Made by a program: the position numbers. From assembly GCF_056746865.1 (NCBI RefSeq), contig NZ_CM163382.1: a DNA stretch of 64,000 nt; one strand, 5' to 3'. Below, one piece after another: positions 45,601 to 51,600 of this stretch (position 1 is its first letter; the number at the start of each line of letters is the position of its first letter).

Positions 45601-48600
45601 TCCTCAACGAAAAACTGGCTAAACAGCTGGTAACTGCCGCGAACTGGGTAAAAATGCAGAGTGACGAAGGGGAAATCAACCCGGTTGATATTCTCCGCTG
45701 GCCGGGGGTAATGGCAGCCCAGGAGCAGGATCTCGACGCGATTACCGCTGAAATTCTCGCGGCGCTGGATGGTACGCTGGACGACTTTATCGTCGCACGC
45801 GAAACCGAAGGTCAGGCGCTGAAAGCATTGATCGAGCAGCGTCTGGAAGGCGTCACCGCCGAAGTGGTCAAAGTCCGCGCCCATATGCCGGAAATCCTGC
45901 AATGGCAGCGTGAGCGTCTGGTCGCGAAGCTGGAAGATGCTCAGGTGCAACTGGAAAACAACCGTCTGGAGCAGGAGTTGGTTCTGCTGGCACAACGAAT
46001 TGACGTTGCCGAAGAACTGGATCGCCTCGAAGCGCATGTCAAAGAGACCTACAACATTCTGAAGAAAAAAGAAGCGGTTGGTCGTCGTCTGGACTTTATG
46101 ATGCAGGAGTTCAACCGCGAGTCGAACACTCTTGCGTCGAAATCTATCAATGCCGAAGTGACGAATTCTGCCATCGAGCTGAAAGTGTTGATTGAGCAGA
46201 TGCGCGAGCAGATCCAGAATATCGAATAAGCTATCAGTAAAAATCACCAAGCAGCAAAAAACCACAAAGCCCGCGAAATGTCGGGCTTTTTTGTTATCAT
46301 GAGCTATCATAACGACGCAACAAAGCGCACAATATGCGTGTACATAGAGGTGTACATAATGACTTTCATGTACATTGCTTTATGTACACACCCATATTCG
46401 ATATTCAGGTATTCGCAATGCCAAAACTCACAGATATGCAGATCCGCGCATGGATAAAGGCGGGAGACAGATTTGATGGCAAGGCAGACGGCAACGGCCT
46501 TTATATTTGCTACCCCAAAAACTACACAGTCCCGTTCTGGCGATTCCGCTATAAGCTCGCAGGAAAGCAGCGGGCTATGGTTATAGGCTCTTACTCCGAA
46601 CTGTCACTATCAAAAGCCAGAGAAACAGCAAAAGAGCTGTCAGCCAGAGTTGCTCTTGGCTATGACGTAGCAGCAGAGAAACAGGAACGAAAAGCTGAAG
46701 CACTGGCAAAAATGGAGGCTGAGAAAAACGCCATGCGTGTTTCAGATCTGGCCTCCGAATACTTCGAGCGCCAGATACTTCCGAGATGGAAACATCCCGA
46801 TATCCTTCGCCGGAGAATTGATAAGGATATTAACCCCTGCATTGGGCATATGAAGGTGGAGGACGTTAAGCCACGCCACATTGACGACATGTTGAAAGGT
46901 ATCGTTGACCGAGGAGCACCAACGATAGCAACAGATGTATTACGCTGGACACGCCGTATCTTTGACTATGGGATAAAACGCCATGCTCTGGAGATAAACC
47001 CTTGTTCAGCGTTTGAAGTATCTGATGCTGGTGGTAAAGAGGTTTCCCGCGACCGTTGGCTAACTCGCGATGAGCTTATCAGGCTATTCGAGGCTATGCG
47101 CACCGCAAAAGGATTCAGCCGCCAAAACGAACTGACATTTAAGCTATTGCTGGCACTATGCGTTCGTAAGATGGAGTTATGCGCCGCACGATGGGAAGAG
47201 TTTGATTTAGATAGTGCTGTATGGCATTTGCCGGAAGAACGCAGCAAAAACGGGGACCCTATTGATATACCTCTACCTTCTCCAGCCGTTGAATGGTTGA
47301 GAGAGCTACACACCTTTTCATGTAATAGCGCATGGGTGCTTCCAGCCAGGAAGATGCAAAACAGAATGATCCCACATATTCAGGAAAGCACTTTACCCGT
47401 AGCACTGGCTAAGGTTCGCGCCGAAATGCCGGATGTGCCTAATTTCACGATTCACGACTTCCGACGCACCGCACGTACTCATTTAGCAGCGTTGGGTGTT
47501 GATCCTGTTGTGGCGGAACGATGCCTCAATCATCGCATTAAGGGCGTAGAGGGGATTTATAACCGCCATCAGTATTTTAATGAGCGTAAAGCAGCACTGG
47601 CACAGTGGGCTGATCTGCTGGTGGCACTGGAAAGCGGAAAAGACTACAACGTAACGCCTCTCAGAAGGGCGAACTAACTGAATAGATTGAGCCTAGCTCG
47701 ACGGGGCGAAAAGCGGGAAGCCTTACCGCCTGGCTCAATCACAAAATAAGGCGCAGCGTAAAAGGTGACGCAATGAACGACTCTCATGAAACAACTGCGG
47801 TGCATAGAAATTAGACTGGCCCCCTGAATCTCCAGACAACCAATATCACTTAAATAAGTGATAGTCTTAATACTAGTTTTTAGACTAGTCATTGGAGAGC
47901 AGATGATTGATGTCTTAGGACCGGAGAAACGCAGACGGCGTACTACACAGGAAAAGATCGCTATTGTTCAGCAGAGTTTTGAACCGGGAATGACGGTCTC
48001 CCTTGTTGCCCGGCAACACGGTGTGGCAGCCAGCCAGTTATTTCTCTGGCGCAAGCAATACCAGGAGGGAAGTCTTACTGCTGTGGCCGCAGGAGAGCAG
48101 GTCGTTCCTGCCTCTGAACTTGCTGCTGCCATGAAGCAGATTAAAGAACTCCAGCGCCTGCTCGGCAAAAAAACGATGGAAAATGAACTCCTTAAAGAAG
48201 CCGTTGAATACGGGCGTGCAAAAAAGTGGATAGCGCACGCGCCCTTATTGCCCGGGGATGGGGAGTAAGCTTAGTCAGCCGTTGTCTCCGGGTGTCGCGT
48301 GCGCAGTTGCACGTCATTCTCAGACGAACCGATGACTGGAAAGATGGTCGCCGCAGCCGTCACTCAGATGATACGGATGTGCTTCTCCGTATACACCATG
48401 TTATCGGAGAGCTGCCCACGTATGGTTATCGTCGGGTATGGGCGCTGCTTCGCAGACAGGCCGAACTTGATGGTATGCCTGCGATCAATGCCAAACGTGT
48501 TTACCGGATCATGCGCCAGAATGCGCTGTTGCTTGAGCGAAAAACCGCTGTACCGCCATCGAAACGGGCACATACTGGCAAAGTGGCCGTGAAAGAAAGC

Positions 48601-51600
48601 AATCAACGATGGTGCTCTGACGGGTTCGAGTTCCGCTGTGATAACGGAGAAAAACTGCGAGTCACGTTCGCGCTGGACTGCTGTGACCGTGAGGCACTGC
48701 ACTGGGCAGTCACTACGGGCGGCTTCGACAGTGAAACAGTACAGGACGTAATGCTGGGAGCGGTGGAACGCCGCTTCGGCAACGAGCTTCCGGCGTCTCC
48801 AGTAGAGTGGCTGACGGATAATGGTTCATGCTACCGGGCTAATGAAACACGGCAGTTTGCCCGGATGTTGGGGCTTGAACCGAAGAACACGGCGGTGCGG
48901 AGTCCGGAGAGTAACGGCATAGCAGAGAGCTTCGTGAAAACGATAAAGCGTGACTACATCAGTATCATGCCTAAACCAGACGGGTTAACGGCAGCAAAGA
49001 ACCTTGCAGAGGCGTTCGAGCATTATAACGAATGGCATCCGCATAGTGCACTGGGTTATCGCTCGCCACGGGAATATCTACGGCAGCGGGCCAGTAATGG
49101 GTTAAGTGATAACAGGTGTCTGGAAATATAGGGGCAAATCCAGAAATTTATGGCAGGAATCAGGTATTCCACCTTTGGACTACTGCACGATAGAGCGAGC
49201 ATCAAAATTATTAAATTGTGAAATTGATGATATATGGCATTGGAAAGATAGACTACATATAGACTTTTATGTCTATGCTGACTTTCTTGATTTCATTGAA
49301 GCTGATGCCACCATCCACTTCAAAAAAGATGCTGATTTTATAACTGATTTATTACTTATGTACCCAGAAGAAGTAAGGTTTACATTTCCTTTTCTTATTA
49401 CCAGCGCAAGCAACGAAGTTTATATCCCAGCATCTGAAAGCGGTGCTTATGAGCTATTTTATGCACATAAACCACTGACAGTTGAAGACAGAGACAATAA
49501 AAATGTTTTTGAACAAATTGGCAAAAACTCTTTTATTGTAAGAAAATCAATTGCATGTGGATTGTTGCGTGTACGCGGTAGTACAAAACGACATTATCAT
49601 TCACAAGAATGTGGAGAGCCATATGTGCGACTTGAAGCAACATTTGATTGTGATCTATATAAATTCAAAATGCAAAGTTCCCAGATTCACCTGAGTAGCC
49701 TGTCAGATAAAAACATTTATATAACAAAGGCTGATTTAGAATACCTTCACGACGCAAAGGTTAATGGAAGTTTTGACGCAGCTAAGAGCAAAAAACGATA
49801 CGAAATGGCGGTAGAACAGGAACTAATACCTGAAATAAAAAATAGCAACCATAATGCCGAGAGACATGCTGAAAACAGGGAAAAACTTTTCAAATCAGCA
49901 ATATATCTTTTGTCAAAGTATCCTGATGAATGCCGTGGCAAAAAGAAAGAAATAAGCCCTGAGAAGTGGCGGGATTGCATAGTGGCTCATAAAGACGAAA
50001 TTCCACCGTTAGCAATCACAAATGAAGATGTGATTTTGAGACACTTACGTGCTGCCGCCAACGGTAAGGGGTAGAGTAGCTAACTATTCAGGCACAGTAT
50101 CATTACTGTGCCTTTTTATTGTTCATATATGTACAGATACTTCCTCCCGTAACGAAGCAACAACTATCGCTAAGAGGTTACGGGAAGCATGAACACCGAC
50201 ACTATTCCTACAAAAGGCTATATCAGACGCTTCCGCCTGGCTGAATTGCTGGGCGTTAGTGTATCCACCATCGACCGTAAAGTAAGAAACGGTTCACTAC
50301 CACGTCCGGTAAAGCTGGGAGAAAAAATAACTGCGTTTGATGCGGTTGAGATTCACAACTGGCTGGCAGAACGCCGCGGGAAGGTGGTCTGATGGAAAAG
50401 AAAAACCGCCCATTACAGGCGGCTAATTCAGATATTCGCGTATCTGATGTTACGCCCCTTACAAAATCCCTTCAAGCACCAAAGCGCACACCGAAAAAGC
50501 ATCGTGCCAGAGTCTATATGCTGCGTACTGGTATAGAGGGATGGACAGAAAATGACATTCTTCGCTACTGCCGTCTGTCTTCTGGTCGTAACTATGCAAC
50601 AGAGTTAGAACGCCAGCTTGGAATCACTCTGGAGCGTATCGACGAAAAGAATCCTGATGGTATCGGAACACACCTTCGCTACCGTTTCTCCTGCCGTGGT
50701 GATGTTCTGAAAGTGATCACTCATGTTAACCATCTTGCGAGCATAAATGATCACAACGGACTTTCTCAGCAGGAAATTGCCGACATTCTGAAACTCTACC
50801 CGGACGCGTTTAACGCCGCCTAACGGAGACTGAAAATGAACATCGAAAAAAGCAGATTAATTTCTGAGGCCGCCCCTCATCTGAACGCCTCTCTGGGCAC
50901 AATTAACGGTAATGAATTTGCCGCAATTGTCCCGGTTATTCCTGGTCATATCGGTGGGCGTGAAACCAATATTGTTAGCGCAAAAGCGTTACACAAAGCG
51001 TTGGGCGTGGGAAAAGACTTCTCTACATGGATCACTGATCGCATCTCTGAATATGACTTCACCATTGGGCACGATTACTCAGTCCATAAAACAATTTCCC
51101 CAAATTTGGGGAAAAGCCCGAATGGCGCGGCTTACAGCAAGATTAAGCAGTCTGGCAGACCCGGCAAAGACTATCTGTTAAGTGTCGGAATGGCGAAAGA
51201 ACTGGCAATGATCGAACGCAATGATCAGGGTCGCGCTATCCGTCGTTATTTCATCCAGTGCGAGGAAGAATTACAGCGTAGCGTGCCTGAAATCGCCGCC
51301 CGCTATCGTCGCCAGCTAAAAGCCCGTATCAGTGCCGCAAACAACTTTAAGCCAATGTGCGATGCGCTGAATATGGCCCGTGCCGAGCAGGGGAAAACGA
51401 CGCAGCAACACCACTACACAAACGAGAGCAATATGATTTCTCGTATCGTTCTTGGTGGGCTAACTGCTAAGCAGTGGGCGCGGATAAATGGCTATTCTGG
51501 CGAACCTCGCGACCATATGAACGCAGAACAACTTGAGCACCTCTCATATCTCGAAAGCACCAATATCACGTTAATTGATATGGGCATGGAATATGAGCAG

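What the first reader, a model, noticed from the sequence alone, without database searches (positions are those of the whole stretch)
47773..50074. AT-rich unknown cargo gene next to the integrase, split by IS2 after codon 13
Splicing out IS2 (47812-49142) and one copy of its GAAAT duplication rejoins ATG 47773 in frame with the downstream ORF, giving a 321-aa protein with no motif I recognise. It sits in the integrase-proximal slot where CP4/P4-like islands and other satellites usually carry defence or toxin cargo, and its AT content is far below the backbone. The IS2 insertion may be a host or self inactivation event, or IS2 may drive an N-terminally altered product starting at 49106 ([14 protein letters not shown] then LWQESG...).
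Basis: partly seen in the sequence, partly recalled or inferred. Interest (0 to 1): 0.7.

Follow-up and report, generated by a model that had tools for sequence, protein, structure and literature searches.

The report
IS2-broken satellite gene of unknown function
An IS2 element has cut a 321-residue gene that fills the swappable single-gene slot between the integrase and alpA of an E. coli phage satellite; the insertion is ordinary, but the gene belongs to a widespread, unstudied protein family whose function is still unknown.

Summary
A 1331-bp IS2 (47812-49142) with a GAAAT duplication splits a 966-nt ORF after codon 13. The spliced ORF is 100% identical to an intact 'hypothetical protein' (WP_001000002.1) at the same yicC-int-alpA locus of other E. 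coli. It has 37% GC against about 48% in its neighbours.

The island is an EcCIMP1-like PICI-type phage satellite: P4-type integrase, alpA, antirepressor, P4-like isrK/C4 RNAs, primase. The gene fills a one-gene slot that recombination swaps between conserved int and alpA flanks. The slot always holds one AT-rich, co-oriented gene of 216-353 aa. These genes come from at least four families with little or no detectable relationship. The family here (X) was the most frequent in my sample.

X has at least 163 clusters at 50% identity, is always found as int-X-alpA, and is absent from phage genomes. It has no Pfam, NCBIfam or reproducible PADLOC match. The model shows an acidic MerR/Xis-fold N-domain, a hypervariable acidic middle and a strongly conserved basic C-domain.

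The 'cargo slot' reading is partly supported. 'Defence or toxin' is untested, and the absence of any known defence system in the roughly 28 slots examined argues against a typical defence hotspot. My best guess, held with low confidence, is a phage-directed binding protein that is a null allele here. Expression driven from IS2 is unsupported.

The parts
46418..47677 (+). P4-type tyrosine integrase of the island, integrated next to yicC
   Evidence: ORF. Same CDS annotated in ECONIH1. Homologues carry Arm-DNA-bind_3/Phage_int_M/Phage_integrase.
47686..47752 (+). int-alpA RNA motif (Rfam RF02996), immediately upstream of the slot gene
   Evidence: cmscan 60.6 bits against a gathering score of 35.8, E=1.3e-10. 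The same motif precedes the slot gene in 18 further loci, whichever gene family follows.
47773..47811 (+). 5' fragment of gene X: codons 1-13 (MNDSHETTAVHRN). The last 5 nt, GAAAT (47807-47811), are the left copy of the target duplication.
   Evidence: The start codon is the one annotated for WP_001000002.1.
47812..49142 (+). IS2 (IS3 family), 1331 bp, with intact orfA (47903-48268) and orfB (48226-49131)
   Evidence: Absent from the otherwise colinear ECONIH1 island. Annotated as an IS3-like element of the IS2 family in matching genomes.
49143..49147 (.). Right copy of the 5-bp target-site duplication GAAAT
49148..50074 (+). 3' fragment of gene X: codons 14-321 plus the stop codon. It encodes all three predicted domains.
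   Evidence: AF2 model with pLDDT 85.7.
49106..50074 (+). Hypothetical IS2-X fusion ORF of 322 aa, starting at a GTG inside IS2
   Evidence: The ORF exists. No promoter-like site was found and the product is not on record. Expression is unproven.
50090..50123 (+). Intrinsic terminator after X: a 10-bp stem followed by TTTTATTGTT
   Evidence: The hairpin and T-tract are also present in L015 and L005.
50144..50184 (+). Hairpin in the alpA leader (TCCCGTAAC...GTTACGGGA) with the Shine-Dalgarno sequence at the 3' side of the loop
   Evidence: An equivalent hairpin in the same place was found in 14 of 15 islands; most differ in arm sequence and 13 of 15 have z of about -2.6 to -6.5.
50189..50392 (+). 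alpA (AlpA/HTH_17 regulator), which forms the right-hand conserved flank of the slot
50392..50823 (+). 143-aa protein named 'PM1773 family protein' in recent RefSeq annotation; part of the conserved right flank
52219..52407 (+). isrK (52219-52295) and C4 antisense RNA (52320-52407), a P4-like RNA immunity module of the same island
   Evidence: cmscan 64.3 and 77.1 bits, both above the gathering scores. Also found in sister islands.

Best explanation
The feature is a null allele, made by a simple IS2 insertion, of the single gene that fills the exchangeable slot between int and alpA in an EcCIMP1-like PICI-type phage satellite integrated beside yicC.

Shown: the gene (X) is real and under purifying selection. 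It belongs to a large family found only in this position of such satellites. It is probably transcribed with int behind the int-alpA RNA leader and is insulated from alpA by a terminator. Its product has three parts: an acidic N-domain with a MerR/Xis-type winged-helix fold, a hypervariable and mostly very acidic beta-rich middle, and a strongly conserved basic helical C-domain of about 75 aa.

Inferred: X is a non-enzymatic specificity protein. Its variable middle recognises a phage component, from the helper or from a competitor. Its conserved C-domain couples that recognition to a partner shared by all hosts or islands. The most likely outcome is satellite-encoded interference or immunity against phage. 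In this strain the function is lost, because IS2 separates codons 14-321 from their promoter, leader, ribosome-binding site and start codon.
For: The splice reconstitutes an intact annotated CDS at 100% identity, and the island is otherwise colinear with ECONIH1.

The family is large: 163 clusters at 50% identity and more than 130 AFDB50 structural relatives, nearly all 'Uncharacterized protein'.

Its position is fixed. All 15 family members examined lie int->X->alpA, at six or more integration sites, in islands with different primases and with or without capsid genes.

No homologue was found in 50,697 phage records.

The C-domain is under purifying selection: 31-34 synonymous against 9-14 non-synonymous codon changes in 70 codons.

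Alleles are replaced between int flanks that are 98% identical and alpA flanks that are 99% identical. This pattern suggests diversifying selection, which would fit an arms race with phage.

Every slot gene is 6-18 GC points below its own integrase (10-18 in 10 of the 12 loci).

A terminator follows X.

Published context: PICIs carry immune systems at their 5' ends (PMC11364771), and EcCIMP1 gives unexplained superinfection immunity with no known defence system (PMC11773190).
Against: There is no functional evidence of any kind. X has no recognisable effector domain.

None of the 18 slot proteins scanned gave a reproducible match to a known defence family. None of the roughly 28 slots examined holds a known multi-gene defence system, unlike P4 or prophage hotspots; this comparison rests on my memory of Rousset 2022.

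A uniform occupant (one gene, one orientation, one size class) could equally indicate a life-cycle function rather than cargo.

A winged-helix fold next to int and directly upstream of the alpA promoter also fits a regulator.

I could not compare X with the proteins tested in Fillol-Salom 2022, because the paper and the DefenseFinder FS_* models are not held here.
Confidence: 0.4

Rival explanations
1. X is the helper-phage sensor or regulator of the satellite, a functional analogue of the SaPI Stl repressor. It keeps alpA silent or sets its induction threshold. A helper-phage protein binds the variable middle domain and relieves this control, and allelic diversity reflects different helper inducers.
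For: X is adjacent to int and co-oriented with it, and it is hypervariable between otherwise identical islands, as Stl alleles are.

It has a winged-helix fold.

The exchanged cassette extends to 43 bp upstream of the alpA ATG, so it carries the putative alpA promoter region with it.

The uniform size and orientation of slot genes suggest a life-cycle role.

The literature states that a global repressor in Gram-negative PICIs is 'unclear' and that the helper inducer of alpA is unknown (PMC6092414).
Against: The winged-helix domain and its 'recognition' helix are acidic across the family.

No Pfam HTH model matches.

The IS2 null allele sits in an island that is still integrated and otherwise intact. 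That is unexpected for a master repressor, because AlpA over-expression causes runaway replication (PMC6092414).

The island already has a P4-like isrK/C4 RNA immunity module.

EcCICFT073 and EcCIMP1 work without X (PMC6092414, PMC11773190).

The alpA leader hairpin type follows the alpA type, not the X type.

Unrelated proteins occupy the same slot.
Confidence: 0.25
2. IS2 does not inactivate the gene. Read-through or outward transcription from the right end of IS2 yields an N-terminally altered product ([14 protein letters not shown] plus residues 14-321) that keeps all three domains and remains functional.
For: The in-frame 322-aa ORF exists.

The 13 replaced residues are the least conserved and lowest-confidence part of the protein.

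From memory, not tested here: IS2 is known to create hybrid promoters at its right end.
Against: No promoter-like site scoring at least 9 of 12 was found at or near the junction.

The start codon is GTG, preceded only by a GGG.

The native leader and ribosome-binding site are 1.3 kb away.

The fusion product is not recorded in any assembly, and no complete E. coli genome shares this junction. The insertion therefore looks like a recent event in a single lineage.
Confidence: 0.1
3. X is an accessory gene with no phage-directed role, for example a host-adaptive or regulatory moron like the PerC/ANR-type factors of EcCIMP1. Its diversity reflects hitch-hiking and relaxed constraint in an AT-rich, H-NS-silenced region.
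For: Low GC. No defence signature. EcCIMP1-like islands do carry host-directed regulators (PMC11773190).
Against: The C-domain is under strong purifying selection. The gene's position is strictly conserved across genera and integration sites. Repeated replacement of alleles between near-identical flanks argues for selection on the slot itself.
Confidence: 0.15

Closest known systems
EcCIMP1, a PICI of E. coli MP1 (Pick et al. 2025, PMC11773190)
   Same: Same island type: int, a slot gene, alpA, antirepressor, Ash, DNA primase, and DUF2824 plus P22-like DNA-transfer proteins downstream. It is mobilised by the P22-like helper Kapi1. It confers unexplained superinfection immunity, and PADLOC and DefenseFinder find no known defence system in it.
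   Different: EcCIMP1 is integrated at tRNA-Thr near proA, not beside yicC. Its slot gene (EcCIMP1_002) is a small protein, roughly a tenth the size of UvrB, and not a 321-aa X-family member. I did not retrieve its sequence for comparison.
PICI 5'-end accessory (immune) region (Fillol-Salom et al. 2022 Cell, as summarised in PMC11364771)
   Same: A location just downstream of int in Gram-negative PICIs that holds variable, non-core genes, some of which were shown to block phages.
   Different: No anti-phage activity is known for X. The slot here holds one gene of uniform size, not diverse systems. I could not read the primary paper or test its models (DefenseFinder FS_*).
SaPI Stl master repressors
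   Same: An int-proximal, single, hypervariable gene of about 250-300 aa with an N-terminal helix-turn-helix-type fold. Its alleles define which helper protein induces the island.
   Different: stl is transcribed divergently from the regulated operon and its HTH is a basic Cro/CI type. X is co-directional with alpA and separated from it by a terminator, its winged helix is acidic, and a null allele is tolerated here.
MerR / Xis / AlpA winged-helix domains (for example TipAN 2vz4, GIsul2 excisionase 8c3t, CbpM 3ucs)
   Different: No sequence-profile match. Net negative charge. The domain is followed by two domains with no detectable structural relatives. The closest analogue in behaviour may be CbpM, a MerR-fold protein that binds a protein rather than DNA; that analogy is my inference.
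YfjH of cryptic prophage CP4-57 (E. coli K-12 b2623)
   Same: An uncharacterised 318-aa protein encoded between intA and alpA.
   Different: It is on the opposite strand and shows no detectable homology to X (hhalign E=0.085 over 13 columns).
int-alpA RNA motif (Rfam RF02996)
   Same: Present at 47686-47752, well above the gathering score. It forms the conserved left border and putative leader of the slot gene.
   Different: It is a neighbouring element, not part of the protein. Its function is unknown. From memory of Weinberg et al. 2017, it was proposed as an sRNA or cis element.

Membership tests
IS2 (IS3 family) simple insertion | Length of about 1331 bp with the characteristic ends TAGACTGG... 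and ...CAAATCCA | tested here: met
   Matching genomes annotate the element as an IS3-like IS2-family transposase.
IS2 (IS3 family) simple insertion | 5-bp direct target duplication, and an uninterrupted target when the element is removed | tested here: met
   GAAAT flanks both ends. Removing the element restores a CDS 100% identical to ECONIH1.
IS2 (IS3 family) simple insertion | Two overlapping transposase ORFs (orfA and orfB) with an A6G slippery site | tested here: met
   orfA is 47903-48268 and orfB is 48226-49131. CAAAAAAG is visible at about 48218-48225.
PICI-type phage satellite (EcCIMP1-like) | int at one end, followed in the same direction by alpA and a primase/replicase, with no lysis or tail genes, at a site specific to the island | tested here: met
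   Searches show int, X, alpA, PM1773 family, AntA/B, DUF4222, Ash/C4 and a DUF5906 primase. The layout matches the description in PMC11773190.
PICI-type phage satellite (EcCIMP1-like) | Helper-phage-dependent induction, packaging and transfer | not testable with these tools
   There is only indirect support: a 21.8-kb circular Klebsiella record with the same gene order.
Known anti-phage defence systems (PADLOC-DB 2.0) | Significant and reproducible match to a defence-protein HMM | tested here: not met
   The only hit is PDC-S31 at E=0.002 over 84 residues. It was found in 0 of 10 homologues and 0 of 7 other slot proteins.
Known anti-phage defence systems (DefenseFinder FS_* models from PICIs) | Match to a protein shown to protect against phage in Fillol-Salom 2022 | not tested
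   The models and the paper are not available here.
MerR/Xis/AlpA-type DNA-binding regulators | Winged helix-turn-helix fold | tested here: met
MerR/Xis/AlpA-type DNA-binding regulators | Sequence-profile membership (HTH_17, MerR) and a basic DNA-contacting helix | tested here: not met
   No Pfam hit in the query. Only 1 of 140 members reached HTH_17, at E=0.015. The recognition helix has a median net charge of -2, against +6 for AlpA as a whole.
SaPI Stl-like master repressor | Loss of the gene de-represses the island, so it is needed for quiescence | tested here: inconclusive
   The IS2-disrupted allele coexists with an integrated, otherwise intact island. This argues against the feature, but a fusion product cannot be excluded.
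SaPI Stl-like master repressor | Transcribed divergently from the operon it represses; binds a helper-phage protein | tested here: not met
   X is co-directional with alpA and a terminator lies between them. Binding to a phage protein cannot be tested here.
Satellite or prophage defence hotspot (P4/P2 type) | Conserved flanks enclosing many unrelated systems of varied size, a good share of them known defence systems | tested here: inconclusive
   The flanks are conserved and at least four families with little or no detectable relationship occupy the slot. But every occupant is a single gene of 216-353 aa, and none is a known system.
int-alpA RNA (RF02996) | Score above the Rfam gathering threshold, located between int and alpA | tested here: met
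   60.6 bits against a threshold of 35.8. Recurs in 18 related loci.

The most novel reading that the evidence does not exclude
The X family, and perhaps the other families that share its slot, is a previously unrecognised functional module of Gram-negative PICI-type satellites. It would be either a new single-protein anti-phage system built from a hypervariable sensor and a conserved 75-aa effector or adaptor domain, or the long-sought protein that couples alpA induction to a specific helper phage. In either case it would be expressed behind the int-alpA RNA leader.
Probability: 0.3. Interest if true: 0.7.

Novelty: new member of a known kind. Interest (0 to 1): 0.45.

Why it matters
How Gram-negative PICI-type satellites sense their helper phage is an open question, and so is what they carry in their variable regions. 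The 2018 founding paper says that a repressor is 'unclear' and the inducer unknown. EcCIMP1 gives immunity by an unknown mechanism.

This locus marks a compact, easily cloned candidate: one gene between two conserved flanks. It has many natural alleles in otherwise near-identical islands, a natural null allele in this strain, and a confident structure model with two domains of unknown fold.

Testing a handful of alleles would show which of three things the slot encodes: a new anti-phage family, a regulator, or neither. The IS2 insertion itself is routine.

Tried and rejected
1. Sequence searches. Pfam, NCBIfam and PHROGs on X and on 140 family members gave nothing. The exceptions are PHROG families of unknown function (phrog_7144 for some members, phrog_30524 for class 3).

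2. PADLOC. The PDC-S31 hit is rejected as chance, because no homologue shares it.

3. PDB sequence search with the single sequence and with the family profile gave only a spurious BET5 match.

5. I considered an HEPN-like Rx5H motif (R288...H294). I rejected it because R288 is not conserved across the family, and the single HEPN_AbiU2 hit at E=0.03 among 140 sequences is at chance level.

6. I tested homology between X and the other slot families and K-12 YfjH. It is not significant, apart from a weak N-terminal similarity to class 2.

7. I asked whether C-terminal conservation reflects DNA-level constraint or recent recombination. I rejected this, because the region is rich in synonymous changes.

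8. I looked for operators or promoters between X and alpA. I found no consensus promoter, and only an imperfect palindrome with no support from comparison with other islands.

9. RNAalifold on the alpA leaders failed because MAFFT misaligned the 5' arms. I replaced it with single-sequence folds.

10. The first AlpA alignment was too diverse for the genome scan, so I repeated the scan with closer sequences.

11. Literature. No paper mentions WP_001000002. The Cell 2022 PICI-immunity paper is not held. The Weinberg 2017 supplements are not held. The 'FS_HP' text search returned only unrelated papers.

12. No complete E. coli genome has this IS2 junction, and the fusion protein is not on record. 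The source strain was therefore not identified.

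
Full report
**1. The observation**

Reading 46500-51500 and the ORF table shows a complete IS2 at 47812-49142. It is 1331 bp long, has the ends TAGACTGGCCCCC... and ...GGGGCAAATCCA, and carries orfA (47903-48268) and orfB (48226-49131). GAAAT flanks it at 47807-47811 and 49143-49147.

Joining 47773-47811 to 49148-50074 gives a 966-nt ORF of 321 aa. Its GC content is 37.3%, against 48.4% for the integrase and 48.8% for the window.

The reconstruction is not a chance ORF:
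- It is 100% identical over its full length to an annotated CDS in three complete E. coli genomes, and at least 95% identical in 75 of 5426.
- In strain ECONIH1 that CDS is WP_001000002.1, 'hypothetical protein', at the same place: yicC | integrase | this gene | HTH regulator.
- A local BLAST of the window against that locus is colinear at 98.8-99.1% on both sides of IS2, and the two alignments overlap by the duplicated bases.

No complete E. coli genome carries this IS2 junction. The insertion is therefore a private, probably recent event.

**2. The surroundings**

The island begins beside yicC. Its gene order is:
- a P4-type integrase (46418-47677);
- the Rfam int-alpA RNA motif at 47686-47752 (60.6 bits, gathering score 35.8);
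- gene X, split by IS2;
- an intrinsic terminator (50090-50123);
- a leader hairpin (50144-50184);
- alpA (50189-50392);
- a 143-aa 'PM1773 family' protein;
- an AntA/AntB antirepressor and a DUF4222 protein;
- a stretch annotated 'ash family' that actually contains isrK and C4 antisense RNAs (52219-52407);
- several small ORFs and a DUF5906 primase (54829-57183);
- DUF2824 and P22-like DNA-ejection proteins.

This layout matches the one described for EcCIMP1, a PICI mobilised by the P22-like phage Kapi1 (PMC11773190). The element is therefore a PICI-type phage satellite with a P4-like RNA immunity module. It is not a classic P4 or CP4 island.

**3. The protein family**

X has no match in Pfam, NCBIfam or PDB sequences, and only noise in PHROGs.

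A word-indexed search found full-length relatives at 58-72% identity in Salmonella, Enterobacter and Cedecea. It also found many proteins of the same length that share only the C-terminal 38% or so. The exhaustive search found 163 clusters (at 50% identity) with E<=0.001. Nearly all are 260-350 aa and typically match X only at residues 12-60 or 245-320, or at both.

Alignments show three parts:
- an N-terminal motif, PPLEYCsIERAAKLLgCEvEDLLHWAaiGaI;
- a variable middle with a near-invariant G151-L-W;
- a C-terminal block, AERHAxNREKLFKSAIYLLSKYPDECRG..KEISPEKWRDCI..H..EIPPL.ITNEDVILKHLR.A.NGKG.

The C-terminal block stays about 80-87% identical between proteins that are otherwise about 30% identical. 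This conservation acts on the protein. Across 70 codons the window, L002 and L005 differ by 31-34 synonymous but only 9-14 non-synonymous codons, at about 72% nucleotide identity.

None of the 140 members has a Pfam domain.

**4. Structure**

AlphaFold2 with the 140-sequence alignment gave a confident model (pLDDT 85.7, pTM 0.72). It has a small alpha/beta N-domain (about 14-75), a beta-rich middle (about 90-206) and a helical C-domain (207-317).

- AFDB50 returned more than 130 relatives in Enterobacterales, Aeromonas and Vibrio, and nearly all of those listed are named 'Uncharacterized protein'.
- BFVD returned nothing.

The winged-helix domain is unusual because it is acidic. Its median net charge is -2 across the family, and its 'recognition' helix is also -2. 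The middle domain has a median of -9.5 and the C-domain +3. The whole-protein pI is about 5.4. AlpA, by contrast, is +6 with pI 10.6. I take this as evidence against classical DNA binding by the N-domain.

**5. Genomic position: fixture or cargo?**

Nine divergent family members were looked up by exact sequence. All nine lie integrase -> X -> AlpA -> ... -> primase. The integration sites include yicC, downstream of der, downstream of ppiD, near yejM and near the citrate lyase genes. The islands have DUF5906, DUF927 or Toprim/DUF3631 replicases, and one carries capsid and protease genes, making it a capsid-forming PICI. X homologues are absent from 50,697 phage records.

That sample was chosen by homology to X, so I also sampled by the flanks.

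*Flank sample in E. coli.* A query of int 3' end + X + alpA + next gene matched 663 of 5426 genomes, of which 74 carry this X allele. Many others have the same int (about 98%) and the same alpA (about 99%), separated by a segment of nearly the same length that is too divergent for megablast. I fetched five of these:
- two carry other X-family alleles (316 and 281 aa);
- two carry a 293-aa protein of another family (class 2, starting MSKLF.LK.WLT);
- one carries a 216-aa protein of a third family (class 3).

The breakpoints lie at the int stop codon, and either inside the X C-domain or 43 bp upstream of the alpA ATG.

*AlpA sample across species.* An AlpA-based scan of one genome per species returned 16 loci, 14 of them usable. 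The slot held X family in 6, class 2 in 5, class 3 in 2 and a fourth family in 1.

*Relationships between the slot families.* hhalign finds only a weak N-terminal similarity between X and class 2 (E=0.019) and none to class 3. CP4-57 of E. coli K-12 has an unrelated 318-aa protein, YfjH, between intA and alpA on the opposite strand.

*Common properties.* In the PICI-type islands examined (CP4-57 aside), every occupant is a single co-oriented gene of 216-353 aa, with 33-45% GC, 6-18 points below its own integrase (10-18 in 10 of the 12 loci). The int-alpA RNA precedes the slot gene in 18 of these loci whichever family follows.

The slot is unusual in always holding one gene of one size class. 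None of the 18 slot proteins scanned gave a reproducible PADLOC match: the single PDC-S31 hit at E=0.002 was not shared by any homologue.

**6. What it most likely does**

*What is shown.* X is a real, selected, satellite-specific protein. It sits behind a conserved structured leader, downstream of int, and is insulated from alpA by a terminator. Its alleles are swapped between near-identical backbones. It combines a hypervariable acidic domain with a strongly conserved basic one, and it has no recognisable catalytic domain.

*What is inferred.* These properties fit a binding protein whose variable part recognises a rapidly evolving target, most plausibly a phage protein. The conserved part would engage a partner common to all hosts or islands.

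Two outcomes are possible. The first is interference or immunity against helper or competitor phages. This fits published statements that PICIs carry immune systems at their 5' ends (PMC11364771) and that EcCIMP1 confers unexplained superinfection immunity (PMC11773190). The second is control of island induction, analogous to SaPI Stl, which would fill the gap noted for Gram-negative PICIs (PMC6092414).

I favour the first (about 0.4) over the second (about 0.25) for five reasons:
- the winged helix is acidic;
- families with little or no detectable relationship occupy the same slot;
- related PICIs function without X;
- the island has its own C4/isrK RNA immunity;
- the IS2 null allele coexists with an integrated, intact island.

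Both readings remain untested.

**7. The IS2 allele**

IS2 separates codons 14-321 from the native leader, ribosome-binding site and start codon. An in-frame GTG at 49106 inside IS2 would replace the 13 least-conserved residues with 14 others and keep all three domains.

There is no promoter-like site at the junction. The Shine-Dalgarno sequence is weak. The fusion protein is not recorded in any assembly. I therefore treat the allele as null (confidence about 0.8-0.9) and the fusion product as a minor rival (0.1). Sequence alone cannot show whether the insertion was selected, for example to relieve a cost, or was neutral.

**8. Novelty and verdict**

The insertion is ordinary. The gene is a member of a widespread but uncharacterised family. 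It fills a hypervariable one-gene slot in PICI-type satellites, flanked by two conserved RNA structures. I found no paper that describes it. I could not check it against the proteins tested in Fillol-Salom 2022.

I file it as a new member of a known kind, namely accessory genes in the variable 5' region of a phage satellite. Interest is moderate (0.45). There is about a 0.3 chance that it is a new anti-phage protein family or the missing helper-sensing regulator, and either would be of clear interest to the field.

Noticed in passing
window 47686-47752 (+); also L005, L008, L011, L013, L016, L017, L019, L022, L023, L027-L029, L032-L034: The Rfam int-alpA RNA motif (RF02996) sits directly after the int stop codon and directly before the slot gene, whichever protein family fills the slot. 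It is missing where the slot gene abuts or overlaps int (L002/L015, L007, class 3 loci). It may be the leader of the slot gene rather than of alpA.
   Followed up: partly
window 50144-50184 (+) and the equivalent position in 14 other islands (L005-L034): The alpA leader forms a hairpin of 7-12 bp with a loop of about 20 nt. The Shine-Dalgarno sequence lies at the 3' side of the loop and the stem ends 2-8 nt before the ATG. Arm sequences differ between islands but stay complementary (CCCGTAAC/GTTACGGG, CCCGTTAC/GTAACGGG, CCCCTAAC/GTTAGGGG, GTGCTCAG/CTGAGCAC, GTGTATGAC/GTCATACAC). This suggests an undescribed cis-regulatory RNA controlling alpA. Single-sequence folds gave z of -2.6 to -6.5 in 13 of 15 cases, and in L026 the minimum-energy fold did not recover this hairpin; the alignment-based test failed because of misalignment.
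   Followed up: partly
window 52219-52295 and 52320-52407 (+): isrK and C4 antisense RNA matches (64.3 and 77.1 bits) lie inside the 343-aa ORF 51838-52869, which RefSeq calls 'ash family protein' in sister genomes. This is a P4-like CI/C4 RNA immunity module, so the long ORF annotation there is probably at least partly spurious.
   Followed up: partly
window 43786-44490: An IS200-type element (Y1 transposase ORF 43889-44398 on the minus strand, and STnc490 RNA 44357-44480 on the minus strand at 146 bits) is inserted between pyrE and rph. It is absent from ECONIH1.
   Followed up: partly
L017, L019, L021, L022, L032 (class 2); L018, L020, L025 (class 3); L026 (class 4); L036 3645-4601 (YfjH): Other uncharacterised protein families occupy the same int-alpA slot: a 293-301-aa family starting MSKLF.LK.WLT, a 216-aa family (phrog_30524, unknown function), a protein of about 240-265 aa in Citrobacter, and the oppositely oriented 318-aa YfjH in K-12 CP4-57. 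None matches PADLOC or NCBIfam.
   Followed up: partly
L037 (CP031371.2, Klebsiella pneumoniae 'plasmid' pKpvST101_4, 21,845 bp, circular): A small circular, non-mobilisable 'plasmid' record carries an X homologue, alpA, an antirepressor and a DUF4222 protein in island order. It is probably an excised or replicating satellite assembled as a plasmid. Two similar records of 21-23 kb exist (NZ_CP033626.1, LR134256.1).
   Followed up: partly
L001 9787-10746 compared with window 43068-43103: ECONIH1 carries a 'reverse transcriptase family protein', possibly a retron, between slmA and pyrE. The window lacks it.
   Followed up: no
window 59098-61549 and beyond 60390: The island carries DUF2824 and P22-like DNA-ejection protein genes, as EcCIMP1 does. 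Identity to the ECONIH1 island stops at 60390, inside this module, which suggests that a different allele of the putative helper-hijacking genes follows.
   Followed up: no
L033 373-1257; L035 3240-3899; L031 3725-4192: Several slot genes or integrases in other species look degraded: a class 2 gene split into 93-aa and 173-aa ORFs, a 5'-truncated class 2 gene, and an int remnant fused upstream of alpA. The IS2 hit in the window is therefore not the only case of decay in this slot.
   Followed up: no
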